Source: an uncultured Bdellovibrionales bacterium (GTDB lineage: Bacteria; Patescibacteriota; Minisyncoccia; Moranbacterales; UBA1568). From it: a DNA stretch of 35,032 nucleotides. This document shows, one piece after another, positions 22,214-35,032 of the stretch; within the stretch, counting starts at the first letter, position 1, and every line of letters begins with the position of its first letter. The notes under the pieces are model-generated. The model did not search any database. It worked only from the letters and a program-made list of their open reading frames with translations, and had not been told where the DNA came from. The DNA lies in assembly GCA_964590035.1 (NCBI GenBank), contig CAZPXK010000002.1, positions 11,979 through 47,010 on the forward strand. The letters are read 5' to 3'. The position numbers and the translations under genes were made by a program.

Positions 22214-22234
22214 AATTGTAAATTTTAGATACTC

Positions 22235-22344: not shown

Positions 22345-22358
22345 ATTTATATTATGCC

Positions 22359-23498
22359 TCATTTTTCGCTTTCTGCCAACTCTTTTTTGAGGATTTTTGC
22401 GAGCTTCTTTATCGCCGTATCGCTCATATCTCCGATAACAGGTTCAATCTCTGGATTGCCGAACTTGATACCGCGGATGATTTCCGTTTGTCGGTCGGTA
22501 GAGATTTTTCCGTAACCGTAAGAACCAAAAGTTGTTCCTACGTCTGTATGTCCGAGATTTTGACTGATAGCTTTCTTTTCTTCCTCGGTCAGTCGTGTCT
22601 TGATGAACTCTTTGACGATAAGATGCCGAAAGGTATGCGGATGGAAATAGGGGATACCTGCACCTTTGAAGCGTTTCTCGAATATCTTTCTGGCAGGGGA
22701 TGCGTTGCTCCAAAAGGTAGGCTCGACAACTCCCGAACTGTAATAGCTGATATTTTCCTTTCCTTGCTCCAATTTGGTGGCGGGAAAAAGCGGGTCAATG
22801 GGTGAGAACTCCCGCTTCTTCTCAAGATAGTCGAACCATTCCAGAAAATAGGTGAGAGGTTTTTTATCAGGCATCGGGAAGAGGGCGGTCGTAATCATCT
22901 TGGAAAACTTGGTTTTCACTCCCGAGGCTGGGTCTTGTTCCAAGATGAGCCTCCGCTTGTCGAAGCTCTTCATTCGGAGGCTGGCGATAGCGGAAATTCT
23001 CGCTCCTGTCAGAAGAGTAAGGGCGATGAGAGCCTTATCACGTTTTTCAACTTCGGTTTCTCCATTGATGCTTTCAAGGACTTGCAAGACTTCCTCGAAA
23101 GTCGGAGCGTCTACCGTCCTCGCTCGGGTGGCTATCTGGCTTTCTTTCCGTGAGAGGTTCAAATAGCCTATGTGAGTAGCGTTGATTTTTGATTTCGGCT
23201 GTTGAGCAAGCCACTCGAAGAACTTTCGCAGGTAGCGGAGAATATCGTAGCAATAGCTCAAGCTGATGGGGTTTTTGGAACCCTTCTTTTCTTTCCCTTT
23301 GAGCCAGTCCCTGAAAACGATTGCCTGCTTATCGTCAAAGGAAGAAAAATCGTCCGTCTTGGTAAAGTCTTCCCAGTAGAGCAGGGCTTTCTCGAAAGAC
23401 GCTATGGAATTGTCTGAAAATTGCTCTGAATTTTTGAGGAAAGCGAAGAACTCACGCTTCGTCATTTCATTCTTGTAATTCGCTTTTTTCATATACAT
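22359..23498 (-). CDS. tyrosine recombinase / phage-type integrase
   Basis: N-terminal SAM-like core-binding domain. Catalytic domain with LTGARISAI (Arg), HPHTFRHLIV (H-x-x-R) and LGHTDVGTTFGSYGY (His/Tyr). Confidence 0.9.
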   Translation of the reverse strand: MYMKKANYKNEMTKREFFAFLKNSEQFSDNSIASFEKALLYWEDFTKTDDFSSFDDKQAIVFRDWLKGKEKKGSKNPISLSYCYDILRYLRKFFEWLAQQPKSKINATHIGYLNLSRKESQIATRARTVDAPTFEEVLQVLESINGETEVEKRDKALIALTLLTGARISAIASLRMKSFDKRRLILEQDPASGVKTKFSKMITTALFPMPDKKPLTYFLEWFDYLEKKREFSPIDPLFPATKLEQGKENISYYSSGVVEPTFWSNASPARKIFEKRFKGAGIPYFHPHTFRHLIVKEFIKTRLTEEEKKAISQNLGHTDVGTTFGSYGYGKISTDRQTEIIRGIKFGNPEIEPVIGDMSDTAIKKLAKILKKELAESEK

Positions 23499-23576
23499 TT
23501 AGGCGTTATTGATGATTTACTCGTAAAGAGACATTCAGGAGAGAGATGCTGGAACCTGTTAGTCCTTTTGGAAGTC

Positions 23577-23960
23577 TCATACGAGGCGATTTACTTTTGT
23601 CCCGCATCGCTCGCATTTTCCCCTTTGGAAGAACTGCTTCCGCGAGTTTTTCCCGATTGTTTTTCCTGTCGGAACCGTCTCTTCCGTTCCTAATGTGGCA
23701 CGGGTCGGCACTCGGCATTTCAGGCAATAATACTCGCCTTGTTGAAGTGGCACTTTTCGCTTCTTCATTTTTTCAGAAAGGAAGTGGCGGAGTTCGTCGC
23801 CCATAATGAGGAGGGGACGAGTGTTCTTTTCAAGGGGATGGAGACCATCCCCGAGCCATCGGAAAATCGTTTTCTTATTGATGTGAAAGAGCGTAGCGAT
23901 TTCTTCGGGTGTGTAGCTATGGCGAGACGTGATAAGTCTCGGGTTATATCGTCGTGTCAT
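23577..23960 (-). CDS. HTH DNA-binding protein with a C-terminal C4 zinc ribbon
   Basis: YTPEEIATLFHINKKTIFRWLGDGL is an HTH. YYCLKCRVP...GKCERCGTK gives CxxC...CxxC. The start is taken as the ATG at 23960 (MTRRYNP), downstream of the small coupled ORF. Confidence 0.6.
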   Translation of the reverse strand: MTRRYNPRLITSRHSYTPEEIATLFHINKKTIFRWLGDGLHPLEKNTRPLLIMGDELRHFLSEKMKKRKVPLQQGEYYCLKCRVPTRATLGTEETVPTGKTIGKNSRKQFFQRGKCERCGTKVNRLV

Positions 23961-23988
23961 ATTTGCGTAATTATGGATTTCAAGTTGG

Positions 23989-24162
23989 CTATGCTTCTCG
24001 GGTCGGAAGTGCCTCACCTTGAGCAGAAGCCTTCCTTTCGCAAAGCCACTGCTCAAAGATTATTTCTCCAAGGATTTGAACGGCATCCCTGATTTCGGCT
24101 ACTTCTTCATCGGAAAGCGTATCGTCGTCCAAAAGCCGTTTGGCTTCTTCGATGGTTAGCAT
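23989..24162 (-). CDS. small acidic ORF (57 aa), below the ORF-track length cut-off
   Basis: MLTIEEAKRLLDDDTLSDEEVAEIRDAVQILGEIIFEQWLCERK... Its ATG overlaps the stop of the upstream gene (ATGCTAA, 24156-24162), which suggests translational coupling. Confidence 0.4.
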   Translation of the reverse strand: MLTIEEAKRLLDDDTLSDEEVAEIRDAVQILGEIIFEQWLCERKASAQGEALPTREA

Positions 24163-24443
24163 ACGGCTTCATCCGAATAGAGACGGTTCTTTATCATCTT
24201 TTGGCTATCAAAGAGCGTCCGTGCATTGAGTTGCAAACGGTCGTTCCAATAGTCGTTGGCACTGGTCTCGATAGTCGGGACACGCCGAAAGATAAACCGA
24301 GCTTTCTTCGGGTTTACGGTTCGCTCGAGGGTATGCAACTCATACCCCAAAGCCACGAGAGAAGAAGCCAAGCCAAGGTCGGTCGTGGCATACTTCGCTT
24401 CTTCAGATAGTTCTGCTGTCTCCTTCAGATGCTTGGTAATCAT
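24156..24443 (-). CDS. DUF5659-like small protein
   Basis: TTDLGLASSLVALGYELHTLERTVNPKKARFIFRR...DYWNDRLQLNARTLFDSQKMIKNRLY fits my recollection of the DUF5659 pattern (TDLyLAafL..G..l...e....k..F.F). This has not been verified by search. Confidence 0.5.
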   Translation of the reverse strand: MITKHLKETAELSEEAKYATTDLGLASSLVALGYELHTLERTVNPKKARFIFRRVPTIETSANDYWNDRLQLNARTLFDSQKMIKNRLYSDEAVC

Positions 24444-24575
24444 AAAGATTGATATAAATGATGATTACCAATCGCGATTGGATTTGCGTTTCTGCTATAT
24501 TGCGCAAAACAAAAACGCATCGTAATGATGCGCTTTTATGTCTTTTGGAAATACTTACATCAGGAAAACGAGTAT

Positions 24576-25661
24576 TTAAATGTCCCTAATATCTTTCGGC
24601 TCTCTTCTATTTTTTATAGACTTTGCAAACCGAGTGGCACTTTTTTTGATAGCATCAGGAGTCATTTGAATATCGTTTTGTTCATCAAGAATTGCGGAGA
24701 TGATTGACTCCTTATACACACCAGCTAGAGAAAGATTTTTTTCACCCTTGTAGTGTTTCAAGAGTTCTTTCTTTGGCAGTTTATAGAGTTCATATATGAG
24801 CTGATTTCTTTTAACATCACTCTCTTTTATCTCGCTAACTTTCACATCGTATTGTTTGTAAAACGTATTCTTTTTGATGATATGCTCTTTCAAATCATTC
24901 CAATTGTCTTCTATATAATTGAGAACCTGCTCTTTTGTTGCATAGGGTTTTACTATGATGAATACACTATTGAAGTGAGAGGAAAGTAGCTTTACTGTTC
25001 TCTCGCTAAAAATATATTTACCACTAAATGGACCCTCCTCTTGACCGTCCATATCATATCGGTCAGGTGAAAAATGGGCTACCCCTATATATCTACAATT
25101 TGGACACGCAATCTTATTTTGAATGTAATTGCGAACACCCTTTTCGCCAAGAAACAGGTATTTCTCAATGAAGTGCATCATTATATGTTCATCAAGCAAG
25201 TCTACATTGAAAAATTTCTGGAATAGAGACCACGCCGTTGGGAAAAGCTTCGAAAGTTTTTTATTCTCTGATATAAAATGATTTTGAGTGAAGTAGCTGT
25301 TGTGGTCATCAATTCGTGAGGATAGAAATATAATTATATCGAGTGGTTTGAATCTTCCTTTTGATTCTTTGATAAAAGCGTCAACTACTTCGTCTCTATT
25401 TTCATTATTCAAACGAATACCTTTTTTTGCCTCATATTTCTCAATAAAACAGAAAAATGCCAGAGAATGTTGTTCATTTGCAGTAAGCTTATTCATCAGA
25501 AATTCTGCCAGTTGTGGAATTTCATCAAAGCCATTTTCAATCGGTATGCCGAGCTCTTTTCTTGTCTTTTTTATTTCATTAACAAAACCCTCCTTTATAA
25601 CAAGCTTATCAAAAAGGATTTTGAATTTTTTCTCGAAATAATCAGCAGAGTACTTTTTCAT
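24576..25661 (-). CDS. hypothetical protein (361 aa), AT-rich orphan
   Basis: Long uninterrupted ORF in a region of about 30% GC. Lys/Asn/Ile/Phe-rich. One CPNC motif. No family recognised. Transcribed divergently from the HTH-mod-res operon. Confidence 0.6.
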   Translation of the reverse strand: MKKYSADYFEKKFKILFDKLVIKEGFVNEIKKTRKELGIPIENGFDEIPQLAEFLMNKLTANEQHSLAFFCFIEKYEAKKGIRLNNENRDEVVDAFIKESKGRFKPLDIIIFLSSRIDDHNSYFTQNHFISENKKLSKLFPTAWSLFQKFFNVDLLDEHIMMHFIEKYLFLGEKGVRNYIQNKIACPNCRYIGVAHFSPDRYDMDGQEEGPFSGKYIFSERTVKLLSSHFNSVFIIVKPYATKEQVLNYIEDNWNDLKEHIIKKNTFYKQYDVKVSEIKESDVKRNQLIYELYKLPKKELLKHYKGEKNLSLAGVYKESIISAILDEQNDIQMTPDAIKKSATRFAKSIKNRREPKDIRDI

Positions 25662-25715
25662 TGCAATCCTAAAGTTTTGCGTAATCGTAATCGTGTAGTA
25701 TAGTTATGGTAACTT

Positions 25716-25937
25716 ATGGTAGAAGAGAAATCAAGTTTGATGAAACGAGAAAATATGCCTGAAATCCTCACTTTGAAACAGGCAAGCGAGGTTTTACATT
25801 GCCACCCAAATACGCTCCGCACGTGGGAGCGGGAAGGGCTGATAAAGTGTATCCGCTTTGGAAAAAGAGGCGATAGGCGATTTGCCAAGGAAGAAATACT
25901 TCGTCTACTTGATGGGAAAGTAGATTTATCAAAATAA
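25716..25937 (+). CDS. excisionase-family / MerR-type HTH DNA-binding protein
   Basis: ILTLKQASEVLHCHPNTLRTWEREGLIKCIRFGKRGDRRFAKEEI is the typical excisionase-family HTH_17 pattern. Internal starts (MKRENMPE or MPEIL) are possible. Confidence 0.7.
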   Translation: MVEEKSSLMKRENMPEILTLKQASEVLHCHPNTLRTWEREGLIKCIRFGKRGDRRFAKEEILRLLDGKVDLSK

Positions 25938-25962
25938 GATTACAAATTACGAAAAAATTACT

Positions 25963-27609
25963 ATGTCAGAAAGCTCACTCAAAAAAGGTCGTTACACGAA
26001 ATTCAGCAATAAAATTGGATTGTATAGCAATAGCAAGGGGGGCTTTATCAAAAACGATACTGACGTAGTGCTGAACTTTCCGTTCAAAGATGCCGTACTT
26101 GAAGCAGGAATGAGCAAGGAGGATGTCGGGCGTGAGGAACGCTTTCTTCACATCGAGGTTGATAGCAAAGACATCGACACGCTGGAAGAACCAAAAGTGC
26201 TTACTGACTTCCGTTACATTGATAAGGACGGCGAAAGGGCATTGGATGCCAATAGCGATATTGAGTTTTTTGATACCGAAGGTAACCTCAAGCAGAACCT
26301 GCTCATCAAGGGGAATAACTTGCTGGCACTGTATACCTTGCGTGAGCGTCTTGCTGGGCAAGTGAAGCTCATCTACATTGACCCCCCGTATAACACGGGT
26401 AACGACGGCTTCCGCTATAACGATAGCTTCAATCATTCAGCATGGCTGGTGTTTATGAGGAATCGACTTGAGGTTGCAAAAGAGTTGCTTAGTGATAATG
26501 GAGCAATATTTGTACAATGTGATGATAATGAGCAGGCTTATCTCAAGGTGTTGATGGATGAGATATTTGGACGCGATAACTTTATCGGAACTCTTATTCA
26601 TCAGCGGGCGAAAGGTGGAGGGCAAGCTAAATATATCGTAAAAGGCCACGATTATATAACTATATTTGCTAAAGATGCTAGTAGTAATGTTCAATTCGCT
26701 CGACAGAAAGTAATTCAGGGAAAGGTTGTAGAAATTGATGGAGTAGCGCACTTACGAAATGATGATATTGTTCGAAAAACTTTTGGAAAATATGATAAGT
26801 CGTTGGGAGATAGGCGCTGTTATTATGAGGAACTAGAAAAATATAAAAATCCATCCCAAATAGAGGAAATTCGACGCAAGGTTGAATTAAGAGAATATGT
26901 TTTGGAAAAAAATGCCTCTGGTATGCATACGATTGTAGCGTATACGCCTGTAGATAGTGCTTATTCGAAGCTATACTCCATCGTTAATGCTTTGTCAGAG
27001 AAGGGTAATGAGCAAATAGAAAGCCTGGGATTGGATTTCAGCAATCCTAAACCAGAAGAGATTATACGGTTTCTTATCGAATCCACTACTAAAGAAAACG
27101 ATATTGTACTTGACTATCATTTAGGTTCAGGCACTACCTCTGCTGTGGCTCAGAAGATGAACCGTCGATGGGTTGGTATTGAACAGATGGATTACATTGA
27201 AGATGTAGCGAAGGAGCGCTTAAAGAAGGTTGTTGCAGGCGAACAAGGTGGTATTAGCAAAACCGTTGGTTGGACTGGCGGTGGCTCTTTTGTGTATTTT
27301 GAACTCAAAAAATACAATCAAGAATATATCGACCGTATCGCGAAGGCTACAAGTCTCTCTGAACTGGAAGAAATCTATGTGGATATGCGGAACAATGCCT
27401 TTCTGAAGTTTTGGTTTGACCGCAAAGAGTTTGAAAAGGACGAGAATTTCCGCAATCTCGACATTCAAGGTCGCAAGCAGAAGCTCGTGGACGTATTGGA
27501 TGAAAACCAACTCTATCTGAACTATGCCGATATGGATGACACACGGCACAAAGTAACTGTCGACGAAAAGACACTAACGGACAAGTTTTATGGCTCGGCA
27601 AAAAACTAA
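25963..27609 (+). CDS. mod: type III restriction-modification DNA methyltransferase (Mod), beta-class N6A/N4C
   Basis: Motif IV IYIDPPYNTGND comes before motif I VLDYHLGSGTTSAVA, which is beta-class order, with a variable region of about 230 aa between them. It is followed by, and overlaps, a res gene. Confidence 0.9.
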   Translation: MSESSLKKGRYTKFSNKIGLYSNSKGGFIKNDTDVVLNFPFKDAVLEAGMSKEDVGREERFLHIEVDSKDIDTLEEPKVLTDFRYIDKDGERALDANSDIEFFDTEGNLKQNLLIKGNNLLALYTLRERLAGQVKLIYIDPPYNTGNDGFRYNDSFNHSAWLVFMRNRLEVAKELLSDNGAIFVQCDDNEQAYLKVLMDEIFGRDNFIGTLIHQRAKGGGQAKYIVKGHDYITIFAKDASSNVQFARQKVIQGKVVEIDGVAHLRNDDIVRKTFGKYDKSLGDRRCYYEELEKYKNPSQIEEIRRKVELREYVLEKNASGMHTIVAYTPVDSAYSKLYSIVNALSEKGNEQIESLGLDFSNPKPEEIIRFLIESTTKENDIVLDYHLGSGTTSAVAQKMNRRWVGIEQMDYIEDVAKERLKKVVAGEQGGISKTVGWTGGGSFVYFELKKYNQEYIDRIAKATSLSELEEIYVDMRNNAFLKFWFDRKEFEKDENFRNLDIQGRKQKLVDVLDENQLYLNYADMDDTRHKVTVDEKTLTDKFYGSAKN

Positions 27610-30421
27610 AGTCAATGAAACGCTCGGTAACTTTCTGTTCAATCAGATAGAAAGCGACCCTGACTTTCAGCAGTGGGCGGTAGATTATAGTATCCCTGAC
27701 TATATCACCGACAACCTACACCCGACGAAACGCTTGCGAGAGTATCAAGAGCGAGCTTTGAAGCACTTCATCTGGCTCTATGACCACGATAGGGCGAGAG
27801 CGAAGCATCTCTTGTTCAATATGGCTACGGGAACAGGGAAGACCCTTGTAATGGCATCCGTGGTGCTGTTTCTCTATGAAAAGGGCTATCGCAACTTCCT
27901 CTTTCTCGTGCATCAGATACAAATCAAAGACCAAGCCGTAAAGAACTTTACCGATTACAAGTTTGAGAAGTATCTGTTCAACCCAAAGGGTATCAAAATC
28001 AATGGACGGAATGTGGACGTCAAAATGGTCGAGAGCGTAGCGGATGCCAACCGCAACGCTATCAACTTTATGTTCTTCAGCACCTCATTGCTCTATAATC
28101 GCCTCAAAGAAGATAGGGAGAACGGATTGACTGCCGAAGACTTTGCAAATAACGATGTCGTGATAATCGCTGATGAAGCCCATCGGCTCAATGTGGATAC
28201 ACGAAGCAAAAACAAGAAAGACCAAGAAGAAATACTCAACTGGGAAACAGCCGTGATGTCGGCTATCAAGGCTCGGGAAGAAAATATGCTGTTGGAGTTT
28301 ACCGCTACGGTTGATTTGGCAAACGAAGCTATTCACAGTAAGTATGAAGATAAGATTGTTCACCGTTACGATTTCCTTGAGTTCAACAAAGACGGTTATA
28401 GCAAGGATGTGAAGTTCCTTTTCAACCAAGAGGTTCATATCGAAGACCAGAAACGCCTACTCATTATCAATGCGGTTGCTTTGAGCGAATATCGCAGGTT
28501 GCTTGCCGAACGAGAAATGGAAGTGTTCATCAGCCCGATTGTGCTTATCAAATCGGTAAAAATCGCTCAAAGCGAAGAAGACCGCAAGTTTTTTGATAGC
28601 GTGATTGGTTCCCTCCGACCAGATGATTTGAACCGTCTCAAAGAATTGAGCAAAGGAGGGAAAAACCGTGAACACGAGATTTTGAGCGATATGTTCAAAT
28701 GGCTCGCATCTCCCAAGGCTGGTCTCGTATCGCAAGGCGATTGGGAGGGATTGAAAGCGTTTACTGCCGAGATACGGGCAAGTTTCGCCCACGAAAACAC
28801 ACTTATCTATAACAGTCAGAAAAAGGAAAAAGCAGAGTTATTGCCATTATTAGATAGTCCTCGAAACACCATCCGTGCCATCTTTTCAGTCAATGCGCTG
28901 AACGAGGGTTGGGATGTGCTTGGTTTGTATGACATCGTTCATTTTGATATTTCCGAAGCCAAGAAGGTATCTCTTCAAGATATTCAGTTGATTGGTCGTG
29001 GTGCGAGATATTGTCCCTATGAACTGCCAAAGCTCTACAAGCAAGATGAAGCCGATGGTATGTCGAGCCTGTTTGCTGGGCGTAGTCTTGAGTTTGATAA
29101 ATACAAACGGAAGTTCGACAACGACCCATTCGATAAGGGGCGAGTGTTGGAAACATTCGTTTATCATTTCGTGAAAACAGGGACATTTCTTGAGAGCCTT
29201 CAGCGTGATTTGCTCGGTGAGGGCATTATCAGCGAAGGTGTCGAAAAGAAGACTATCGCGATGAAGCAAAAGTTCCTTGAAAGCGAGACTTACAAGAAAG
29301 GGTTCGTTCTCGTAAATCATACGGAACAAAGAACCAAGACGAAGGATGATGAGATTGATACGACATTCAAGCGTGTCATAAAGGCTGGCTCATATAATTT
29401 ACGGGCGAGGGGTCTATCGGATTTTGAACAAAACCAAATTATCGCAGGACAAAAAGTTGATGTTATTAGCATCACTGAAGAATATTTCCCACTGCCTGTC
29501 ATTCGTAAAGCGTTGGTTTCTGCCGAGGGTAACTTTTTCCGTTTCAGTAATTTGAGCAAGCATATTGTCGGTATCAGCACGATTGATGAACTCATTGAAA
29601 AATACCTGCCACTTTATAAAATCAGTTATACCTACGAAGAAGGCAAGGGTATCAGTCAGCTCAATCCGATAGAAAAACTGCAATTGCTGGTCGGCGTGAT
29701 ATTGCCAGAGGTGCGTAAGGCGATTGATATAAATATGCCCCGCGTAACGGGGAGCAAAAAATTCCGTCCAGTCTCGTTGTCAGTTGTATTTGGCAAGGAA
29801 AAGAATATCTATCTGATGTCGTTTCCAGTCGAAGACGCGGTTACTGGGAAGAAGGTGTTTATGAGCAACGATGAACGTGCCAAAGCACAGTCCGACCACG
29901 ACAATCCAGAACTGCAATACGATATTCAATCTGCCAATTGGTATGCCTATGATGAGAACTACGGCACGAGTGAGGAGAAACGCTTTGTGAAGTATATAGC
30001 GAGCCAGATTGATGATTTACGGGCGAAGTATCAAGGGGCGGAGATTTACCTGATACGCAACGAACTTGATTACTGGCTCTTTAGCCCGCAAGACGGACGC
30101 AGGTTCAGCCCTGACTATATGCTGATAGTGAATGATGTCGCCAATGGCGAGATGTATTACCAGTGTTTGATTGAGCCAAAGGGCGGTCATTTGCTCGAAC
30201 ACGATGTGTGGAAAGAAGAAGCCCTGATAAGCCTGAATGATGATAGCGAGGTGGTATTTGACGCACGGGATGGTGATACTCGCAATTACCGTGAATACTT
30301 AGCAGAAGTCAGCAAGCACGGCTATAAGGAGATAAAATCGCTTGGCTTGAAGTTCTACAATTCCGACCCTCGCGGTGAAGAAGATTTCGCACTGGATTTT
30401 CAAGAAAAATTACTTCGCTAA
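27590..30421 (+). CDS. res: type III restriction endonuclease subunit (Res), SF2 helicase + PD-(D/E)xK nuclease
   Basis: NMATGTGKT (motif I), IIADEAHRL (DEAH), SVNALNEGWDV, IGRGAR, and the C-terminal FSPDYMLIV...CLIEPKG nuclease motif. The start overlaps mod by 20 nt. Confidence 0.9.
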   Translation: MARQKTKVNETLGNFLFNQIESDPDFQQWAVDYSIPDYITDNLHPTKRLREYQERALKHFIWLYDHDRARAKHLLFNMATGTGKTLVMASVVLFLYEKGYRNFLFLVHQIQIKDQAVKNFTDYKFEKYLFNPKGIKINGRNVDVKMVESVADANRNAINFMFFSTSLLYNRLKEDRENGLTAEDFANNDVVIIADEAHRLNVDTRSKNKKDQEEILNWETAVMSAIKAREENMLLEFTATVDLANEAIHSKYEDKIVHRYDFLEFNKDGYSKDVKFLFNQEVHIEDQKRLLIINAVALSEYRRLLAEREMEVFISPIVLIKSVKIAQSEEDRKFFDSVIGSLRPDDLNRLKELSKGGKNREHEILSDMFKWLASPKAGLVSQGDWEGLKAFTAEIRASFAHENTLIYNSQKKEKAELLPLLDSPRNTIRAIFSVNALNEGWDVLGLYDIVHFDISEAKKVSLQDIQLIGRGARYCPYELPKLYKQDEADGMSSLFAGRSLEFDKYKRKFDNDPFDKGRVLETFVYHFVKTGTFLESLQRDLLGEGIISEGVEKKTIAMKQKFLESETYKKGFVLVNHTEQRTKTKDDEIDTTFKRVIKAGSYNLRARGLSDFEQNQIIAGQKVDVISITEEYFPLPVIRKALVSAEGNFFRFSNLSKHIVGISTIDELIEKYLPLYKISYTYEEGKGISQLNPIEKLQLLVGVILPEVRKAIDINMPRVTGSKKFRPVSLSVVFGKEKNIYLMSFPVEDAVTGKKVFMSNDERAKAQSDHDNPELQYDIQSANWYAYDENYGTSEEKRFVKYIASQIDDLRAKYQGAEIYLIRNELDYWLFSPQDGRRFSPDYMLIVNDVANGEMYYQCLIEPKGGHLLEHDVWKEEALISLNDDSEVVFDARDGDTRNYREYLAEVSKHGYKEIKSLGLKFYNSDPRGEEDFALDFQEKLLR

Positions 30422-30433
30422 TGAGAAAACAAT

Positions 30434-31315
30434 ATGCCAATCTTTCAAATCGCCAGTAAGAACGCAAAGCAGATAGCTCTTGATTTGGGTCGTTTTGAAA
30501 ACGAAGCCTCCCTCCGTGATTACTTCGCGGAAAATCTTGAAAGCCTCCTTGGTATGCGTTTTTTGGCGAAAGAGTATCAAACACGCGATGGGAGAATTGA
30601 TACGCTGGCGATTGATGAGGCAAATGCCCCAGTGATTATTGAGTATAAATGGAACGAAAAGGATACCATACTTCCGCAGGGTCTTTTCTATTTCAACTGG
30701 CTCAAAGAAAACAAACGGTTATTCAATCTTCAGGCTGAAAAAATCCTTGGAAAGGAAGTCAAAGTCAATTGGGAAAAACCACGGGTCGTGCTTATTGCTC
30801 AAGGATTTGACCGCTACACGATGTTTGCCGTCCGAGAGGTGCGGTATGTGGAACTTATCAAATATACGCCATACAAGGACGGTATTTTGCTTCTTGAGAC
30901 GGTATATAGTCCAGATACGTCCAAGCCCATTACGGAAAAAGCGGAAGAAAGTGAGACTGAAGAGAAAGAAGAAAAATTCGGGGTTGATTACCATTTGGAG
31001 AAAGTTACGAATGAAGTGAAAGAGGTTTTCTATGCTCTTGAAGAGAGGCTTTTGGCATTGCCTTCGGTGACGGAGGTTGCCGAGCAAAAGGCGGGCATTA
31101 CCTATCGGACAACCAAGAGCTTTACACGGTTTGAGTTCGGAAAGACATACATTGATATTCTGCTCCGTGAGGCAAAGTATGAAGACCCGCAGGGATTGGT
31201 TCAGGATATTGCTTCATACAAATGGGGTTATAACGGGAGAATAAAAATCAAATCTCTTGAGGAGGTAGAGACTATCTTTGAGTTGATACGCCAGTCGTAT
31301 CAGTCTACCCTTTAG
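30434..31315 (+). CDS. NucS/DUF91-like PD-(D/E)xK nuclease-fold protein with a DUF5655-like C-terminal domain
   Basis: The N-terminal pattern ...EASLRDYFAENLESLLGMRFLAKEYQTRDGRIDTLAIDEANAPVIIEYKW is typical of NucS/DUF91-type nucleases. An acidic linker follows. The C-terminus (ITYRTTKSFTRFEFGKTYIDILL...KIKSLEEVETIFELIRQSY) resembles DUF5655. Both calls are from memory. Confidence 0.6.
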   Translation: MPIFQIASKNAKQIALDLGRFENEASLRDYFAENLESLLGMRFLAKEYQTRDGRIDTLAIDEANAPVIIEYKWNEKDTILPQGLFYFNWLKENKRLFNLQAEKILGKEVKVNWEKPRVVLIAQGFDRYTMFAVREVRYVELIKYTPYKDGILLLETVYSPDTSKPITEKAEESETEEKEEKFGVDYHLEKVTNEVKEVFYALEERLLALPSVTEVAEQKAGITYRTTKSFTRFEFGKTYIDILLREAKYEDPQGLVQDIASYKWGYNGRIKIKSLEEVETIFELIRQSYQSTL

Positions 31316-31323
31316 AAAAAAAA

Positions 31324-31506
31324 ATGTATCACCCTATTCAACCACCAGAAGGAAGCATTGAATGGATGAAGGAGATGGTGAAGAAGAATGAGGGGCGTGA
31401 GCTGACTGACCAAGAGGCTTACGAAGTGGCATACAACTATCTCAATTTCTTCAATATGCTTATATATCTGGATAAAAAGCAGAAGCCTAACAAACCAAAA
31501 GAGTAA
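31324..31506 (+). CDS. small hypothetical protein (60 aa)
   Basis: Tightly packed between flanking genes, with its stop 4 nt before the next ATG. Shares an [LI]-[ST]-D-x-[ED]-A-x-E...L..hh motif with ORFs 32369..32569 and 23989..24162. Confidence 0.4.
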   Translation: MYHPIQPPEGSIEWMKEMVKKNEGRELTDQEAYEVAYNYLNFFNMLIYLDKKQKPNKPKE

Positions 31507-31510
31507 ATTT

Positions 31511-32359
31511 ATGAAAGCAGTAAAAAAGCCCCCACTCAAAGCTAACCTGACACGTCTCTCCAAAGATAAGGAATGGCGTCTGTATAAGAGAAAATCGGCT
31601 ATACCCATAGGGGCAGAGACATCAAGGCACTACTTGATTGGTACCTTGACCAATGGTTTCAATCTTATCCTGGCTGGTATAACTGGCTCTGGGAAAAGCA
31701 CATTTTTCCACAGTGCTATTGTTCATCTTTTGGAGAATACAAAGCCTGACGAATTGAAGCTCGTCCTCATTGACCCGAAACAAGTAGAACTGCGAATATA
31801 CGAAAGTCTGCCTAACTTGGCGTTTCCAGTTATTGGGACTTCAAAAGAAGCAAAGAAAGTTCTGAAATGGTGTATGAGTGAGATGAACCATCGACTCGAG
31901 ACCCTGACAAAAAAAGGGAAGCCTATATCTTTTGACGATTTCAATCGAAAGCATAAGAGCAAATTACCGAGGATTGTAGTTCTTATCGACGAATGTTCTG
32001 ATTTGATGCACGATAGCCCTCGTTTCTTCAGGAAGGCAATCGAAGACATACTCAAGCTTGGAGAGGCGACTGGCGTAAACTTGGTGATAGGCACATCTCG
32101 TCCGTCACTTGATGTTTATCCTGAAAAGCTAGTGAGTGCATTTCAATATAAACTAGCCTTCAAAGTATCGAAGTCCACTGATTCCGTACTTGTTCTTGGT
32201 GTAAAGGGTGCTGAAAAATTGCGAGGTAAAGGGGATATGCTTTTCCGCTTTTGGGAGGGACTGGAGGAGCGTGTTGCTCATTTACAGGGCTTCTATATAA
32301 GTGAGGCGGAAATAAAGAAAGCTATCGCTTCAATCAAACCGCTTAGGAATGGGGGGTAA
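31511..32359 (+). CDS. FtsK/SpoIIIE-family DNA translocase ATPase, motor domain only
   Basis: Walker A LILAGITGSGKSTF, Walker B PRIVVLIDECSDL, VNLVIGTSRPS, GKGDMLF. No TM segment or gamma domain. Confidence 0.8.
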   Translation: MKAVKKPPLKANLTRLSKDKEWRLYKRKSAIPIGAETSRHYLIGTLTNGFNLILAGITGSGKSTFFHSAIVHLLENTKPDELKLVLIDPKQVELRIYESLPNLAFPVIGTSKEAKKVLKWCMSEMNHRLETLTKKGKPISFDDFNRKHKSKLPRIVVLIDECSDLMHDSPRFFRKAIEDILKLGEATGVNLVIGTSRPSLDVYPEKLVSAFQYKLAFKVSKSTDSVLVLGVKGAEKLRGKGDMLFRFWEGLEERVAHLQGFYISEAEIKKAIASIKPLRNGG

Positions 32360-32368
32360 GTAGAGTGT

Positions 32369-32569
32369 ATGGTTTCTCAAGAGGCTCTGGAAGAGTATAA
32401 GAAAATCTACAGGAAGCAATTTAGAAAGGATATTTCGGATGCTGACGCCTTGGAACAGGCGACCAAGCTCCTTCGTCTTATGGAAATCATCTACAAGCCA
32501 ATGACGAAAGAGGAGTTTGATGAACTGGCGAGAAGGAACCCGACTATATCGCTTGAGCCTGCTCAATAG
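32369..32569 (+). CDS. small hypothetical protein (66 aa)
   Basis: Starts 9 nt after the ftsK-like stop. The motif DISDADALEQATKLLRLMEIIY is shared with two other small ORFs of the element. Confidence 0.45.
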   Translation: MVSQEALEEYKKIYRKQFRKDISDADALEQATKLLRLMEIIYKPMTKEEFDELARRNPTISLEPAQ

Positions 32570-32590
32570 CCATTCTCAACTCCTGCCAAG

Positions 32591-32615
32591 AGAGGCTTTA
32601 CAGAGCCTCTTTTTT
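32591..32615 (+). terminator. rho-independent terminator
   Basis: AGAGGC (32591-32596) / GCCTCT (32605-32610), followed by TTTTT. Confidence 0.55.
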
Positions 32616-32618
32616 GTA

Positions 32619-32647
32619 TTGACACCGAGCCTAAAAAGGTGTATAAT
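32619..32647 (+). promoter_or_regulatory. consensus sigma70 promoter of the DGR target gene (TTGACA-17 nt-TATAAT)
   Basis: TTGACA at 32619-32624, exactly 17 nt of spacer, TATAAT at 32642-32647. Both hexamers are perfect consensus. Confidence 0.65.
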
Positions 32648-32794
32648 GGTATGTTGAACCTTAAAAATCCATACTTTTGCCATAGCAGAAAGCGGCTTCA
32701 TCTAGGCCTTTCTCTGCTATGGCAAACTCGAATCTTTCGAGACCTGGCCTGCGACCATGTCCGCAAGGATAGTCGCTTCAACAAGGAGATCGTT

Positions 32795-33421
32795 ATGACG
32801 AAGTCCGAGTTTTCTGTCGTTGGTCTGGCGCACAAAATCTGCCTTGCCGCAGAAGCGCAGGGATACAACCCCGAGCTTCTCAACGCTTTGGCGGAACATC
32901 CTTCTCTCTTCGAGCAATTGCTCGAAGTGCAGCAAGGTCGAGCGAACATCGTTCCGTTCGAGAAAAAGCCGGAGCCCGTTCTCGACACCCTCATCCGTGT
33001 CGACCGCTCCATCCGGCCGGTTTACCCCGACTGGATGAAGACCGTGATGCATCCGGAACTGGAATCTACCGGCCTGGTCGAATACGATCTCGGAACCATC
33101 AACCCTTGGCTCCATGACGGTCAGAAAAATGGCCGCTACATGGAAGGCAACAAGCTCTACGAGTATCTGAAAGAACAGAAGATGCTCGAGAGCTGCCTGT
33201 CGCTGCGCGACGGCGAAGAGATCCAAAAGAAAGGCCTGGCTGTTTTCCGGAAGTTCTTCCAAGGCAAAGCGGTCTTTCTCTGGAAGTCAGTCGTGCGGCG
33301 CCGCGGCGGCAGCCTCAACGTTCCGTATCTCTACGAGGACGACGACGGGGTGGTGGTGGGCTGGCGCTGGCTCGGCAGCAGCTGGGACGGCAACGACCCC
33401 GCTCTGCGCTTCGCAAGTTAG
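32795..33421 (+). CDS. DGR variable (target) protein, 208 aa, no signal peptide; VR forms the C-terminal 42 codons
   Basis: The ATG at 32795 is preceded by AAGGAG 7 nt upstream. The ORF-track start at 32639 lies inside the promoter -10 region and is rejected. The C-terminus ...GGSLNVPYLYEDDDGVVVGWRWLGSSWDGNDPALRFAS ends 5 nt after the VR, as in CLec-fold DGR targets (xxGFRxA-like ending). Confidence 0.85.
   Translation: MTKSEFSVVGLAHKICLAAEAQGYNPELLNALAEHPSLFEQLLEVQQGRANIVPFEKKPEPVLDTLIRVDRSIRPVYPDWMKTVMHPELESTGLVEYDLGTINPWLHDGQKNGRYMEGNKLYEYLKEQKMLESCLSLRDGEEIQKKGLAVFRKFFQGKAVFLWKSVVRRRGGSLNVPYLYEDDDGVVVGWRWLGSSWDGNDPALRFAS
33291..33414 (+). repeat. DGR variable repeat (VR)
   Basis: 124 bp aligned without gaps to 33771-33894 (offset exactly 480). 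There are 19 mismatches, all at positions where the TR has A (17 are G and 2 are C in the VR). The adenine-free 3' block CCCCGCTCTGCGCTTCGC is identical in both. Confidence 0.92.
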
Positions 33422-33474
33422 CACTCTGGACTCTGTATCTTTGGTCTCTTAGACCCTTGATACTTAGTCCTTTG

Positions 33475-33510
33475 ACCCCGCATTTTACCTAATGGTAGTG
33501 CGGGGTTTTC
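33475..33510 (+). terminator. rho-independent terminator downstream of the target gene
   Basis: ACCCCGCA (33475-33482) / TGCGGGGT (33499-33506), followed by TTTT. Confidence 0.55.
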
Positions 33511-33546
33511 ATTTTCTCAATTTTTTATCTTTTGATATACTGAAAT

Positions 33547-33940
33547 TGGTAGTAGGCGAATCTTGCAGGCGACTACGGTTGCCAGCGGCCGAATCCAGTA
33601 TCCATACACCGAGAGTATCCGCGGCCACGGTTTCGGATAGAGTGGTGTATGTAGACACTTCACTAAAAATGAAGATACTTGGTATAAGATGCTAAGGCAT
33701 TTGAGATGCCGAATACGATTCAACTCTGAGAGTATTCAAGGGGTGATGGCACAGGTGGCATTTTATACGTTCGTGCAGAACCGCAACGGCAACCTCAACG
33801 TTCCGTATCTCTACGAGAACGACGACAAGGTGGTGGTGAACTGGAACTGGCTCGACAACAACTGGAACGACAACAACCCCGCTCTGCGCTTCGCCATTCT
33901 CTTCTTTCTCCTCTCACTGGTTAGAGGAGTTTTGTTTTTT
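33547..33940 (+). ncRNA. putative DGR template RNA (structured leader + TR + 3' hairpin)
   Basis: Extended -10 TGaTATACT at 33533-33541. Leader stems: GTAGT/ACTAC (33549-53 / 33572-76), CATACACC/GGTGTATG (33603-10 / 33644-51) enclosing TATCCG/CGGATA (33616-21 / 33634-39), GGCAT/ATGCC (33696-33710) and GAATAC/GTATTC (33711-16 / 33732-37). The TR is at 33771-33894. A hairpin CTCCTCT/AGAGGAG (33908-33929) is followed by a T-run. Transcript ends are inferred, not demonstrated. Confidence 0.35.
33771..33894 (+). repeat. DGR template repeat (TR)
   Basis: Contains 34 adenines, including 12 AAC codons when read in the VR frame. 19 of the 34 A positions differ in the VR, and no non-A position differs. 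Confidence 0.92.
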
Positions 33941-34303
33941 CAGGAGCTGTCCCTGCCAACCCCCGAGCATTCGCCCGATTTCATCAAGTCTTACCGAAAG
34001 TGCCAGATACTTTTTGTTATCCAGTGACTTGGTCTCCCACAAAATCATCAAGAAGAGTTTGAGGGTATCCATCTTTTTGATAGCGTGGCGGATGTACGGA
34101 ATCTTTTCCGTACCTGAAGAAAAGCTGGCTGCTGCCACTGCTTCAATAGTTTCTACAAAGAGACTATCAATTTTCTGCCCTAGAGAATGCCGGTGAATTT
34201 TTGGCAAAGTAAAAAGATAGCTATACCACAATGTGTATCCTTCCTTCAGTTTTTGCAAAAGAGGTAAGAGCTTCGGGGGGGGGGTGTTCAAAGAAGAGTT
34301 CAT
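33914..34303 (-). CDS. avd: DGR accessory variability determinant (Avd), four-helix-bundle / 23S rRNA intervening-sequence protein family
   Basis: 129 aa. ...YLFTLPKIHRHSLGQKIDSLFVETIEAV...IKKMDTLKLFLMILWETK...LSVRLDEIGRMLGGWQGQLLKK parallels Bordetella bAvd (IPRKHG..., AEVGRILGSWIARVNRK) and the four-helix-bundle family. It lies between the TR and the RT but on the opposite strand. Confidence 0.85.
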   Translation of the reverse strand: MNSSLNTPPPKLLPLLQKLKEGYTLWYSYLFTLPKIHRHSLGQKIDSLFVETIEAVAAASFSSGTEKIPYIRHAIKKMDTLKLFLMILWETKSLDNKKYLALSVRLDEIGRMLGGWQGQLLKKQNSSNQ

Positions 34304-35032
34304 ATATAAAGAAAAAATGTGCTGCCACTTATGATAATATCATTTCTCTCGATAATTTGCTTATCGCTTGGAAAGAGTTCTTGAAAGGAAAACAGAAGAA
34401 AAAAGATGTACAGGAGTTTGAATTGCGCCTTATGGATAATATCCTCGCACTGCACCAAAACCTCGTAACTAAAACCTACCGCCATTCAAGCTACGAGGCT
34501 TTCAATATTTCCGACCCCAAACCTCGAAACATCCATAAAGCCCGAGTGAGAGACCGAGTCGTTCATCGTGCCATATACCGCATTCTCTATCCTTTCTTCG
34601 ACCGGCTATTCATTGCTGACTCATATTCCTGTCGAAATGACAAAGGAATCCACAAAGCTCTTGACCGTTTCCGAAGCTTCGCTCGCAAAGCTTCCCACAA
34701 CCATACACGGACTGTTTGGGCACTCAAATGCGATGTGAGGAAGTTCTTTGCTTCTATTGACCAGAGCATCCTCCTTGGTATTCTCGAAAAGCATATTCTT
34801 GACCAAGATATTCTCAAGCTTCTTTCAGCAATCATTGGGAGCTTCCATACAGAGGAGGGGAAAGGCTTACCGCTTGGCAATCTCACATCCCAGCTTTTGG
34901 TGAACGTCTATATGAACGAGTTCGACCAGTTTATGAAACATCAAGCAAAGGCGAAATACTATATTCGTTACGCTGATGACTTTGTAATTTTCTCGGATAA
35001 TAAGGAGCAACTGAAAACAACTCTCTTGCAGA
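34231..35032 (+). CDS. DGR reverse transcriptase, C-terminus beyond the window edge; start uncertain
   Basis: Absent from the ORF track because it is open at 35032. Translation: ...YDNIISLDNLLIAWKEFLKGKQKKKDVQEF...PRNIHKARVRDRVVHRAIYRIL...SYSCRNDKGIHKAL...ALKCDVRKFFASIDQSIL...GLPLGNLTSQLLVNVYMNEFD...YIRYADDFVIF. The LGNLTSQ motif (rather than the QGxxxSP of group II introns) and YADD are DGR-RT hallmarks. The only in-frame ATG upstream is at 34231, which overlaps avd by 73 nt. Confidence 0.9.
   Translation, partial: MCILPSVFAKEVRASGGGCSKKSSYIKKKCAATYDNIISLDNLLIAWKEFLKGKQKKKDVQEFELRLMDNILALHQNLVTKTYRHSSYEAFNISDPKPRNIHKARVRDRVVHRAIYRILYPFFDRLFIADSYSCRNDKGIHKALDRFRSFARKASHNHTRTVWALKCDVRKFFASIDQSILLGILEKHILDQDILKLLSAIIGSFHTEEGKGLPLGNLTSQLLVNVYMNEFDQFMKHQAKAKYYIRYADDFVIFSDNKEQLKTTLLQ
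34275..34284. repeat. G10 homopolymer (C10 on the avd strand)
   Basis: Ten consecutive G at 34275-34284. They encode Pro-Pro-Pro (codons 8-10) of avd on the minus strand and Gly-Gly-Gly of the extended RT frame on the plus strand. Confidence 0.9.

What the first reader, a model, noticed from the sequence alone, without database searches (positions are those of the whole stretch)
32795..33421. The DGR target is a small, apparently cytoplasmic, GC-rich protein embedded among restriction and mobility genes
The 208-aa target has no signal peptide, lipobox or TM helix (MTKSEFSVVGLAHKICLAAEAQGYNPELL...). Most characterised DGR targets are surface-displayed (phage tail fibre Mtd, TvpA, LdtA lipoprotein). 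Its roughly 165-aa N-terminal part matches no family I recognise. The gene is much more GC-rich than its neighbours. Sampled lines give 53%, 57% and 68% GC for the target, against 40% in the adjacent ftsK-like gene and 30% in the orphan at 24.8 kb. It has its own perfect-consensus promoter and lies 1.4 kb downstream of a type III RM + NucS-like module on an integrated element. An intracellular hypervariable binding protein in that context could be a diversified sensor in a conflict or defence role. That is speculation on my part. It could equally be a packaged or secreted effector using a non-classical route.
Basis: inference. Interest (0 to 1): 0.7.

Follow-up and report, generated by a model that had tools for sequence, protein, structure and literature searches.

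The report
Patescibacterial DGR target without export signal
The gene is the hypervariable target protein of a working diversity-generating retroelement in a Moranbacteria (Patescibacteria) genome. It belongs to a very large family that never carries an export signal, a puzzle already noted in the literature, and the restriction genes beside it are chance neighbours.

Summary
ORF 32795-33421 (208 aa) ends in a variable region (VR, 33291-33414). The VR differs from the template repeat (TR, 33771-33894) at 19 positions, all TR adenines. bAvd lies on the minus strand and a DGR-type RT follows. The gene has a 12/12 consensus promoter, 57.7% GC against 46.4% for the window, and no signal peptide, TM helix or lipobox.

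- The protein belongs to a Patescibacteria-wide family (1044 clusters at 50% identity). Only 1 of 257 members has a signal-like N-terminus.
- Published surveys already report that CPR DGR targets lack export signals and known domains, and call this an open question.
- None of 86 homologous loci shares the RM, PDC-S18 or FtsK-like neighbours, so a functional link to them is unsupported.
- A very confident AlphaFold model (pLDDT 97) has no significant PDB or viral structural neighbour. A C-type-lectin scaffold is therefore not confirmed.

New details:
- The protein is an exchangeable ~55-aa helical N-module plus a conserved 150-aa core.
- GC3 enrichment is a family trait.
- A covarying 21-bp RNA hairpin follows a near-consensus promoter in the 5' leader. 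It also precedes other DGR target families with different C-terminal domains.

Verdict: new member of a known but uncharacterised kind, moderately interesting.

The parts
20642..20715 (+). tRNA-Ala(cgc), the attachment point of the island
   Evidence: ARAGORN and Rfam. Homology with relative L092 ends at 20718, and L092 has the same tRNA without the island.
20716..35032 (.). Strain-specific integrated island (at least 14.3 kb, runs off the window). It carries a Ser recombinase, a Tyr integrase, type III RM, PDC-S18, an FtsK/SspH-like ATPase and the DGR.
32588..32613 (+). Terminator-like hairpin that closes the upstream gene. It is part of the conserved leader block 32592-32742.
32619..32647 (+). 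Sigma-70 consensus promoter TTGACA-17-TATAAT (12/12)
   Evidence: A promoter scoring at least 10/12 lies a median 32 nt before the hairpin in 40 of 47 homologous loci, against 1.5% of random 90-mers.
32676..32726 (+). Conserved 21-bp leader hairpin in the 5' UTR (model R1 match 32669-32734)
   Evidence: 96% of cells are paired, 13 of 21 pairs show compensatory changes, 0 of 500 shuffles reach this, G-U pairs are conserved, and the + strand scores higher. It is not in Rfam.
32783..32788 (+). Shine-Dalgarno AAGGAG, 6 nt before the ATG
   Evidence: Read from the sequence.
32795..33421 (+). DGR target (variable protein) CDS, 208 aa
32795..32962 (+). Exchangeable N-module, residues 1-56, three helices
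   Evidence: AF2 helices 3-21, 26-34 and 36-46. N-termini fall into 41 clusters. DNA homology is lost over 32743-32980 in loci that share the leader and the core.
32963..33418 (+). Conserved 150-aa core domain, residues 57-208
   Evidence: AF2 pLDDT 97, pTM 0.90. No structural neighbour.
33291..33414 (+). Variable region (VR). Its last 19 nt (33396-33414) are identical to the end of the TR and are read as IMH-like (inference).
   Evidence: 21 adenine-containing codons, 1.1e20 possible proteins. VR-restricted variants in other samples.
33428..33470 (+). Imperfect inverted repeat 14 nt after the VR. Candidate counterpart of the hairpin that follows the IMH in other DGRs.
   Evidence: The function is inferred.
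33474..33507 (+). GC-rich hairpin plus U-run, the intrinsic terminator of the target gene
   Evidence: z = -7.4. Orphan family copies lose homology here.
33771..33894 (+). Template repeat (TR)
33908..33929 (+). Hairpin plus T-run directly after the TR
   Evidence: Its role (terminator or priming structure) was not tested.
33914..34303 (-). bAvd accessory protein, on the opposite strand
   Evidence: PF22296 1.6e-12. NF033474 5e-17, below the curated cut-off. In every locus where Avd was detected (about 40) it is on the strand opposite to the target and RT.
34285..35032 (+). DGR reverse transcriptase, N-terminal ~250 aa, cut by the window end
   Evidence: RVT_1 8.5e-22. LGNLTSQ and YADD motifs.

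Best explanation
This is the variable protein of a Patescibacteria-type DGR cassette with the order target(+), TR(+), bAvd(-), RT(+). The cassette lies on an island integrated at tRNA-Ala in a Candidatus Moranbacteria genome.

Shown:
- The RT/bAvd/TR machinery rewrites 21 adenine-containing codons in the last 41 residues of the protein.
- The protein is built from an exchangeable ~55-aa three-helix N-module and a conserved 150-aa alpha/beta domain. In the model the VR covers that domain's last four beta-strands and their connecting loops, with variable residues alternating along the two long strands.
- The gene is an autonomous unit: consensus promoter, structured leader hairpin, strong SD, and its own terminator.

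Inferred:
- The variable face is a ligand-binding surface. The N-module is an adaptor that tethers it to some partner.
- Because essentially no family member has a Sec, Tat, lipoprotein or TM signal, the default reading is that it is made, and probably acts, in the cytoplasm. I put this at about 55%. The alternative is export by an unknown route.
- The adjacent type III RM, PDC-S18 and FtsK-like genes are co-resident island cargo, not functional partners.
For: DGR mechanics: all 19 of 19 VR/TR mismatches lie at TR adenines, at codon positions 1 or 2. bAvd and an RT with DGR-type motifs are present.

Activity: the same scaffold occurs in another assembly with 13 VR-only changes. Two sister clusters show the same pattern, one of them (P0014, contig of L008) at a locus with no RT within 8 kb.

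Family: 1044 representative clusters. All named members are Patescibacteria. SecA places the host in Moranbacteria.

Architecture: conserved in about 40 loci.

Modularity: the core (residues 57-208) is conserved and the N-termini fall into 41 clusters. The DNA homology map shows leader conserved, N-module swapped, core conserved.

Structure: pLDDT 94 for the full protein and 97 for the core. Variable codons alternate along strands 174-182 and 185-192 and fill the turn at 183-185 and the loop at 194-201.

No export signal.

Not viral.

Neighbours not conserved.

Expression unit.
Against: - Localisation rests on the absence of known signals, judged with simple heuristics. Patescibacterial export routes are poorly known.
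- The literature's working assumption is host-cell attachment (PMC10221324, PMC10907252).
- No ligand, no partner for the N-module and no conserved neighbouring gene was found.
- The only clearly cytoplasmic fusion, a ClpX zinc finger in P0146, is a single case on a 1.9-kb contig with neither leader hairpin nor TR.
- The fold could not be tied to the C-type lectin scaffold used by characterised DGR targets. The binding-surface reading is therefore by analogy.
- The RT is truncated by the window end, so the integrity of this copy's RT is unproven.
Confidence: 0.7

Rival explanations
1. Exported or surface-displayed adhesin. The variable protein leaves the cell by a non-classical route, perhaps with the N-module as a targeting or docking signal. 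It then mediates attachment of the episymbiont to changing host surfaces, as is usually assumed for CPR DGRs.
For: Most characterised DGR targets are surface or virion proteins, and cellular targets usually have a TM segment or signal peptide (PMC8144416). Reviews assign CPR DGRs to host attachment (PMC10221324, PMC10907252). Near-consensus promoters suggest strong transcription, as might be expected for an abundant structural or surface protein. Exchangeable N-modules could be docking domains.
Against: Only 1 of 257 members has a signal-like N-terminus, and none has a credible N-terminal TM segment or lipobox. No secretion-system gene recurs in 86 loci. One nearly invariant single Cys is present and no Cys pair. 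One member carries a ClpX zinc finger.
Confidence: 0.3
2. Diversified intracellular sensor of a defence or conflict system that works with the adjacent type III RM, PDC-S18 (NucS-like) or FtsK/SspH-like genes.
For: The gene lies 1.5 kb downstream of the RM/PDC-S18 module within a defence island on a mobile element. It looks cytoplasmic. DGR-diversified cytoplasmic antigen sensors are published for multicellular bacteria (PMC10907252).
Against: None of 86 homologous loci contains any of these neighbours. There is no effector, NTPase or adaptor domain and no PADLOC hit for the target. The same N-module was found only in ORFs that carry the core, so no homotypic partner is nearby. The cassette occurs mostly among housekeeping genes. 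[quoted passage not shown]
Confidence: 0.1
3. Receptor-binding protein of a prophage or other virion-forming element.
For: The classical DGR paradigm is Mtd of phage BPP-1. The cassette lies on an integrated element with recombinases.
Against: There is no homologue in 50,697 phage genomes or in IMG/VR contigs. The part of the island inside the window (20.7-35 kb) carries recombinases, restriction/defence and DGR genes, and none of the genes scanned matched a capsid, tail or terminase family. Homologues sit between mur, gat, lig and aaRS genes.
Confidence: 0.03

Closest known systems
DGRs of Candidate Phyla Radiation bacteria (RT clade 2 of Roux et al. 2021, PMC8144416; 'CPR set' with unknown VR classes UVR1-6 of Wu et al. 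2018, PMC5758913; Paul et al. 2017, not readable here)
   Same: Patescibacterial host. Cellular, not viral. The target has no TM segment, signal peptide or recognisable domain. The VR is C-terminal with AAC-rich TR codons. Transposases or recombinases are often nearby. Several targets or cassettes can occur per genome.
   Different: I could not map this VR onto a named UVR class because the supplements are not held. None of the papers I could read mentions the leader hairpin, N-module swapping or GC3 excess, but I did not search for them specifically. According to PMC10907252, citing Paul 2017, the commonest CPR target architecture is CLec plus AAA ATPase. This family has no ATPase.
C-type-lectin-fold variable proteins (BPP-1 Mtd, Treponema TvpA, archaeal AvpA; PMC2408619, PMC5006420)
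   Same: The VR occupies the C-terminal ~40 residues. Invariant hydrophobic and Trp residues are interleaved with variable Asn-coded positions. The order of secondary-structure elements (beta, two helices, then four strands) is compatible with a CLec topology. The C-terminal 'ALRFA' resembles the 'GFRL'-type ends I recall from FGE-type VRs. That resemblance is from memory and is only a lead.
   Different: No Foldseek hit with E <= 0.001 to any PDB chain. No DGR variable protein appears among the 50 best PDB matches shown, and the best CLec hit (1ukm_B) has TM 0.34/0.41 and rmsd 9.3 A. hhalign against Mtd gives probability 0.06%. No Pfam CLec, FGE or DUF1566 match at E <= 1 in any of 104 members.
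Predicted cytosolic DGR targets in cyanobacteria and DGR-diversified antigen sensors of conflict systems (PMC7517822, PMC10907252)
   Same: The target lacks export signals. The idea of an intracellular hypervariable binder is the same. Targets are modular, with a variable C-terminal domain grafted onto exchangeable N-terminal domains.
   Different: Those targets carry kinase, STAND NTPase, MoxR-associated or peptidase domains and belong to RT clade 5. Here the N-terminal part is only ~55 aa of helices, no effector or transducer is present, and the RT lineage is CPR-type.
5'-UTR stem-loops, and integron attC-like folded recombination sites (analogies for the leader hairpin only)
   Same: A long imperfect hairpin with conserved bulges, conserved by structure with covariation. 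It lies at the boundary between a fixed promoter and an exchangeable coding module.
   Different: Only one copy per gene, upstream rather than downstream of the ORF. It lies 25-55 nt after a -10 box, so it is transcribed. Conserved G-U pairs and a higher score on the sense strand favour RNA. No function was tested.

Membership tests
Diversity-generating retroelement (DGR) | TR/VR repeat pair whose differences are confined to TR adenines | tested here: met
   124-nt repeats with 19 of 19 mismatches at TR adenines. The same pattern occurs in about 40 homologous loci.
Diversity-generating retroelement (DGR) | Reverse transcriptase of DGR type next to the TR | tested here: met
   RVT_1 8.5e-22. 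LGNLTSQ and YADD motifs. The RT is truncated by the window end, so completeness is unknown. No DGR-specific RT model was available. NCBIfam hits were to other RT classes and all below their cut-offs.
Diversity-generating retroelement (DGR) | Accessory variability determinant (Avd) | tested here: met
   PF22296 bAvd scores 48.3 bits against a cut-off of 40. NF033474 scores 62 bits, below its cut-off of 80.
Diversity-generating retroelement (DGR) | VR at the 3' end of an ORF, with an invariant GC-rich end (IMH) and evidence of diversification | tested here: met
   The VR ends 4 nt before the stop codon, and its last 19 nt are identical to the TR. P0266 has the same scaffold with 13 VR-only changes. 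IMH function itself is not testable here.
C-type-lectin-fold DGR variable protein | Structural similarity of the VR-bearing domain to CLec/FGE-type folds | tested here: not met
C-type-lectin-fold DGR variable protein | Sequence or profile similarity to known CLec VR families | tested here: not met
   No Pfam hit at E <= 1 to CLec, FGE or DUF1566 in 104 members. The PDB profile search was empty. hhalign against Mtd gives 0.06%.
Secreted, lipoprotein or membrane-anchored DGR target | N-terminal signal peptide, lipobox or TM helix | tested here: not met
   Hydropathy and regex heuristics on 257 family members gave 1 signal-like N-terminus, 2 hydrophobic 19-mers (not N-terminal anchors) and 1 lipobox-like string. 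SignalP and TMHMM were not available.
Known anti-phage defence system component | Match to a defence-protein model, or conserved association with defence genes | tested here: not met
   The target and Avd have no PADLOC hit. None of 86 loci shares the RM, PDC-S18 or FtsK-like neighbours.
tRNA-integrated genomic island | Insertion at the 3' end of a tRNA gene, absent from a close relative, with recombinase genes at the junction | tested here: met
   The far end of the island lies outside the window.
Rfam RNA families (for the leader hairpin and the TR flank) | Score at or above the family's gathering threshold | tested here: not met
   Only the tRNA passes. At E <= 1 the only other hit is a weak RT-7 match at 33609-33664 (23 bits against 116.8). 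Nothing matches at the hairpin.

The most novel reading that the evidence does not exclude
Patescibacteria run a modular, intracellular hypervariable-binder system. A dedicated leader RNA hairpin behind a consensus promoter drives small proteins assembled from an exchangeable helical adaptor and one of several exchangeable DGR-mutated domains. At least this 150-aa domain is a VR scaffold unrelated to the C-type-lectin and Ig folds known for DGRs. On this reading the proteins act inside the cell, for example as immune-like sensors or as adaptors that recruit variable ligands to conserved machinery, and not as adhesins.
Probability: 0.2. Interest if true: 0.8.

Novelty: new member of a known kind. 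Interest (0 to 1): 0.5.

Why it matters
DGRs are strikingly enriched in Patescibacteria. Yet what their targets do, and whether they ever leave the cell, is explicitly unresolved (PMC8144416).

This window offers a clean, apparently active example. The analysis turns the puzzle into testable pieces:
- a compact 150-aa domain with a very confident model and no known structural relative;
- an adaptor-like N-module that is swapped between otherwise identical genes;
- a covarying leader RNA hairpin shared by several unrelated DGR target families, which suggests common regulation or handling of target transcripts.

If the proteins do act in the cytoplasm, ultra-small symbionts would carry an intracellular, antibody-like diversification system. 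If the domain is a new scaffold, it is also a small, naturally evolvable binder of biotechnological interest.

Tried and rejected
1. C-type lectin or other known fold. AF2 on the full protein and on the core alone, followed by Foldseek against PDB (twice) and BFVD, gave nothing significant. The PDB profile search was empty. Pfam at E <= 1 on 104 members gave only one ClpX zinc finger. hhalign against BPP-1 Mtd found nothing.
2. NCBIfam and PADLOC gave no hit for the target.
3. Guilt by association. tblastn of all window neighbours against 86 loci, plus clustering of 1202 neighbouring ORFs, found no conserved partner beyond Avd and RT. The third-largest cluster was an antisense-ORF artefact of the GC-rich gene.
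4. Viral origin. No hit in phage genomes or IMG/VR.
5. Searching the N-module alone in the 5.8-billion protein set failed because of the word filter. A local HMM of the N-module hit only ORFs that also contain the core.
6. The ClpX-zinc-finger fusion as proof of cytosolic life is a single member on a short contig, with neither hairpin nor TR. I treat it as weak evidence.
7. GC excess as translational codon selection was rejected. Both C over T and G over A are raised at third positions. GC excess as a footprint of recent transfer of the cassette was also rejected. In the same cassettes, RT and Avd are AT-richer than their flanks.
8. The Rfam RT-7 hit upstream of the TR is far below threshold, and no Rfam RT motif reached its gathering score in nine homologous loci.
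9. Sister families that share the leader hairpin have no Pfam or PDB relatives either.
10. Paul et al. 2017 and the supplements of Wu et al. 2018 were not available.
Full report
**1. What is at the coordinates**

The ORF 32795-33421 (+) encodes 208 aa. Its last 124 nt (VR, 33291-33414) are repeated 480 nt downstream (TR, 33771-33894). The two copies differ at 19 positions. Every one is an adenine in the TR (17 A>G, 2 A>C), and all fall on codon positions 1 or 2.

A bAvd gene (PF22296, above Pfam's cut-off) lies at 33914-34303 on the opposite strand. A reverse transcriptase with LGNLTSQ and YADD motifs starts near 34285 and runs off the window. This is therefore a canonical DGR.

The TR holds 21 adenine-containing codons, 13 of them AAC. 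That gives about 1.1e20 possible proteins.

The element is active in nature. A second public assembly encodes the same protein with one substitution outside the VR and 13 inside it. Two sister clusters show the same VR-restricted variation.

**2.

All of them hold.
- GC: the gene is 57.7% (GC3 74%, VR 71.8%) against 46.4% for the window.
- Promoter: TTGACA-17-TATAAT at 32619-32647 is a 12/12 match. AAGGAG lies 6 nt before the ATG.
- Terminator: two hairpins, the second followed by a U-run, follow the stop codon.
- Upstream genes: type III Mod and Res, a NucS_C/DUF5655 protein that matches the PADLOC candidate PDC-S18 (8.5e-66), and an FtsK/SpoIIIE-like ATPase resembling the C-terminus of SspH.
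- Host: a Candidatus Moranbacteria (SecA 86-96% identical to named Moranbacteria proteins).
- Island: a relative with 96% identical SecA has the same trmD-ftsW-murG-murC-murB...secA...tRNA-Ala(cgc) synteny. Homology with the window stops at 20718, the 3' end of the tRNA. In the window a large serine recombinase and a tyrosine integrase follow. Everything from 20716 to the window end is thus a strain-specific integrated island.

**3. The protein belongs to a very large family**

An exhaustive HMMER search found 1044 representative clusters (50% identity) with E <= 0.001. All named members, and 80 genomic loci, come from Patescibacteria-type MAGs: Moranbacteria, Nomurabacteria, Zambryskibacteria, Kaiserbacteria, Taylorbacteria and others.

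Conservation covers residues 57-208. The first ~55 residues are helical and fall into 41 clusters in all-against-all BLASTP, most of them singletons.

The DNA shows this modularity directly. Several loci share the window's leader (32592-32742, 82-88% identity) and its core (from 32981 onward) but have an unrelated segment between them.

A few members carry two or three tandem cores (P0121, P0123).

**4. Localisation**

Among 257 family members that start with Met, one has a signal-like N-terminus. Two have a hydrophobic 19-mer, one of which lies inside a ClpX zinc finger. One has a lipobox-like string.

These are heuristics, but the result is uniform. It agrees with Roux et al. [quoted passage not shown] Predicted cytosolic DGR targets are also published for cyanobacteria (PMC7517822). 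DGR-diversified cytoplasmic sensors of conflict systems are published for multicellular bacteria (PMC10907252). For CPR it is an acknowledged open question.

The one clearly cytoplasmic fusion I found is a ClpX zinc-binding domain (E = 1e-17). It is a single protein on a 1.9-kb contig, so I count it as weak evidence.

**5. Context**

The defence-island setting does not generalise.
- None of 86 homologous loci contains a relative of the FtsK-like, NucS-like, Res or Mod genes, or of the small ORFs beside the target.
- Clustering 1202 neighbouring ORFs shows only Avd and RT as recurrent partners. Otherwise the neighbours are housekeeping genes (mur ligases, gatCA, ligA, aminoacyl-tRNA synthetases).
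- A large serine recombinase recurs in five other loci, and tRNA genes often lie just upstream. This fits a mobile cassette, not a defence module.
- The order target(+), TR(+), bAvd(-), RT(+) is conserved in about 40 loci.
- Some copies consist only of leader, target and terminator, with no TR or RT within 8 kb (for example L008, L010, L020). At least one such copy (the contig of P0014, locus L008) still shows VR-only variation between samples. This suggests targeting in trans.
- No homologue exists in 50,697 phage genomes or in IMG/VR.

**6. Fold**

AlphaFold2 with a 104-126-sequence alignment gives pLDDT 94 for the full protein and pLDDT 97, pTM 0.90 for the core.

The model has three N-terminal helices. 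Then comes a domain with four short strands, two helices (the second kinked), and a C-terminal strand, long beta-hairpin, loop and strand. The VR covers this C-terminal part.

Variable codons alternate along the hairpin strands (175, 178, 180, 182 and 189, 191). They fill the turn (183-185) and the loop (194-201). The interleaved L, V and W residues are invariant. This is what one expects of an exposed binding face, but that reading is an inference.

Foldseek found no match with E <= 0.001 in PDB (two searches) or BFVD. The only lectin-like hit (snake EMS16) has TM 0.34/0.41 and rmsd 9.3 A. Profile searches of PDB and Pfam, and hhalign against BPP-1 Mtd, were negative.

The order of secondary-structure elements is compatible with a C-type lectin topology. 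The domain is therefore either a very divergent CLec fold, as Roux et al. guess for such targets, or a new scaffold. I cannot tell which. Wu et al. 2018 likewise left CPR VR classes "UVR1-6" unassigned.

**7. GC-richness is a family trait**

- In 68 of 74 loci the non-VR core is GC-richer than its flanks (mean +8.6 points). RT and Avd in the same cassettes are AT-richer than their flanks (-3.8 and -2.7 points).
- GC3 is 0.67 against 0.45 for other genes in the same loci (60 of 64 loci, Wilcoxon p = 1.8e-11).
- Both C over T and G over A are raised at third positions.

This argues against simple translational selection and against recent transfer of the whole cassette from a GC-rich donor. I have no tested explanation.

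**8. A conserved leader RNA**

The inverted repeat at 32676-32726 folds into a 21-bp hairpin with two small bulges.

- Distribution: a covariance model finds it, sense strand, in 49 of 79 other loci searched. It occurs upstream of the family gene, in most loci as a single copy (two in L040), and almost always scores higher on the sense strand. Run without filters, the model finds nothing convincing in 63 kb of unrelated sequence.
- Covariation: on 42 distinct sequences, 96% of cells pair and 13 of 21 pairs show compensatory changes. Two G-U pairs are conserved. No shuffle out of 500 reaches the observed values.
- Position: a promoter scoring at least 10/12 lies a median 32 nt upstream of the stem in 40 of 47 loci, against 1.5% of control windows. 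The hairpin is therefore part of the 5' UTR.
- It has no Rfam match.

A pattern scan of metagenome contigs gave 57 further copies. Of the 46 with at least 450 nt downstream, 26 precede this family. The other 20 precede ORFs, most of 200-250 aa. Several of these have N-modules of the same types (one nearly identical to the window's), but their C-terminal parts do not match the core HMM. At least three of them are DGR targets with TR, Avd(-) and RT(+) downstream. None has a Pfam or PDB relative.

The hairpin and the N-module set are therefore generic parts of this Patescibacterial cassette type, and the VR-bearing domain is itself exchangeable. Possible roles are mRNA stabilisation, protein binding, RNase III processing or a recombination boundary. 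None was tested.

**9. Verdict**

A cytoplasmic-looking DGR target is correct, and correct for the whole family. The link to the restriction and mobility genes is coincidental, and the CLec scaffold could not be shown.

The element is a new member of a known but functionally dark kind, CPR DGRs. My best explanation is a strongly transcribed, modular, DGR-diversified binding protein that is made without an export signal. I put cytoplasmic action at about 55%. Export by an unknown route for host attachment is the main rival at about 30%.

Interest is moderate (0.5). The puzzle is real and acknowledged. The leader hairpin, the module swapping, the GC3 excess and the orphan fold are concrete new handles. 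No function is established.

Noticed in passing
window 32676-32726 (+); homologues in L001-L086 and L096-L152: A 21-bp bulged RNA hairpin lies in the 5' UTR, 25-55 nt after a near-consensus promoter. It shows strong covariation (13 of 21 pairs compensatory) and has no Rfam match. It also precedes other DGR target families that have different C-terminal domains. Its function is unknown.
   Followed up: partly
window 32743-32980 compared with L007, L013, L014, L025 and others: N-terminal module swapping. The leader (32592-32742) and the core (from 32981) are 80-90% identical between loci, while the segment encoding residues 1-62 is unrelated. The same N-module types recur on other C-terminal domains (for example L135, L126, L137).
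   Followed up: partly
window 32963-33290 and 64-74 homologous loci: Family-wide synonymous GC enrichment of the target gene (GC3 0.67 against 0.45 in neighbouring genes, p = 1.8e-11). RT and Avd in the same cassette are AT-richer than their flanks. This is unexplained. The GC-rich gene also produces long spurious antisense ORFs (for example 32717-33262 on the minus strand).
   Followed up: partly
window 33914-34303 (-), 33908-33929 (+), 33514-33679 (+): bAvd is encoded on the strand opposite to the TR and RT in every locus where it was detected (about 40). The TR is followed at once by a hairpin plus T-run and preceded by weak promoter-like sites. The TR RNA may therefore be a separate short transcript, unlike BPP-1, where avd, TR and brt lie on one strand in that order. 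The TR-upstream block 33531-33757 is conserved across loci.
   Followed up: no
window 33609-33664 (+): Weak Rfam RT-7 match (23 bits, gathering score 116.8, E = 0.006) upstream of the TR. It is probably not meaningful.
   Followed up: partly
window 30434-31315 (+) and 31511-32359 (+): The NucS_C/DUF5655 protein matches the PADLOC candidate system PDC-S18 (8.5e-66). The FtsK/SpoIIIE-like ATPase matches the C-terminal part of SspH (2.6e-36) and mad8. With the type III RM (25963-30421) they form a small defence island.
   Followed up: no
window 20621-22252 (-), 22359-23498 (-), 20642-20715 (+): A large serine recombinase ORF overlaps the 3' end of tRNA-Ala at the island junction, and a tyrosine integrase follows. 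Serine recombinases also lie next to the DGR target in L031, L034, L037, L045 and L066.
   Followed up: partly
L001-L003 (target 86% identical to the window's): In this related cassette the RT is split into three short ORFs. Homology to the window starts exactly at the hairpin's first base, and no good promoter precedes it (7/12). It looks like a decaying DGR copy beside an intact target.
   Followed up: no
window 24576-25661 (-): A 361-aa ORF in a 34% GC stretch, with no Pfam, NCBIfam or PADLOC match and no relative in the 86 loci.
   Followed up: no
window 32369-32569 (+): A 66-aa ORF directly upstream of the target has a sub-threshold Pfam match to CTD5 of ABC-3C conflict systems (E = 6e-4, 19.8 bits against a cut-off of 25). 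It is not conserved next to other family members.
   Followed up: no
P0121 / L088 6001-8379: A 792-aa family member has three tandem cores and a long N-terminal region related to the L137 protein. An AAA ATPase gene lies immediately downstream. This recalls the CLec plus AAA ATPase architecture reported for CPR.
   Followed up: no
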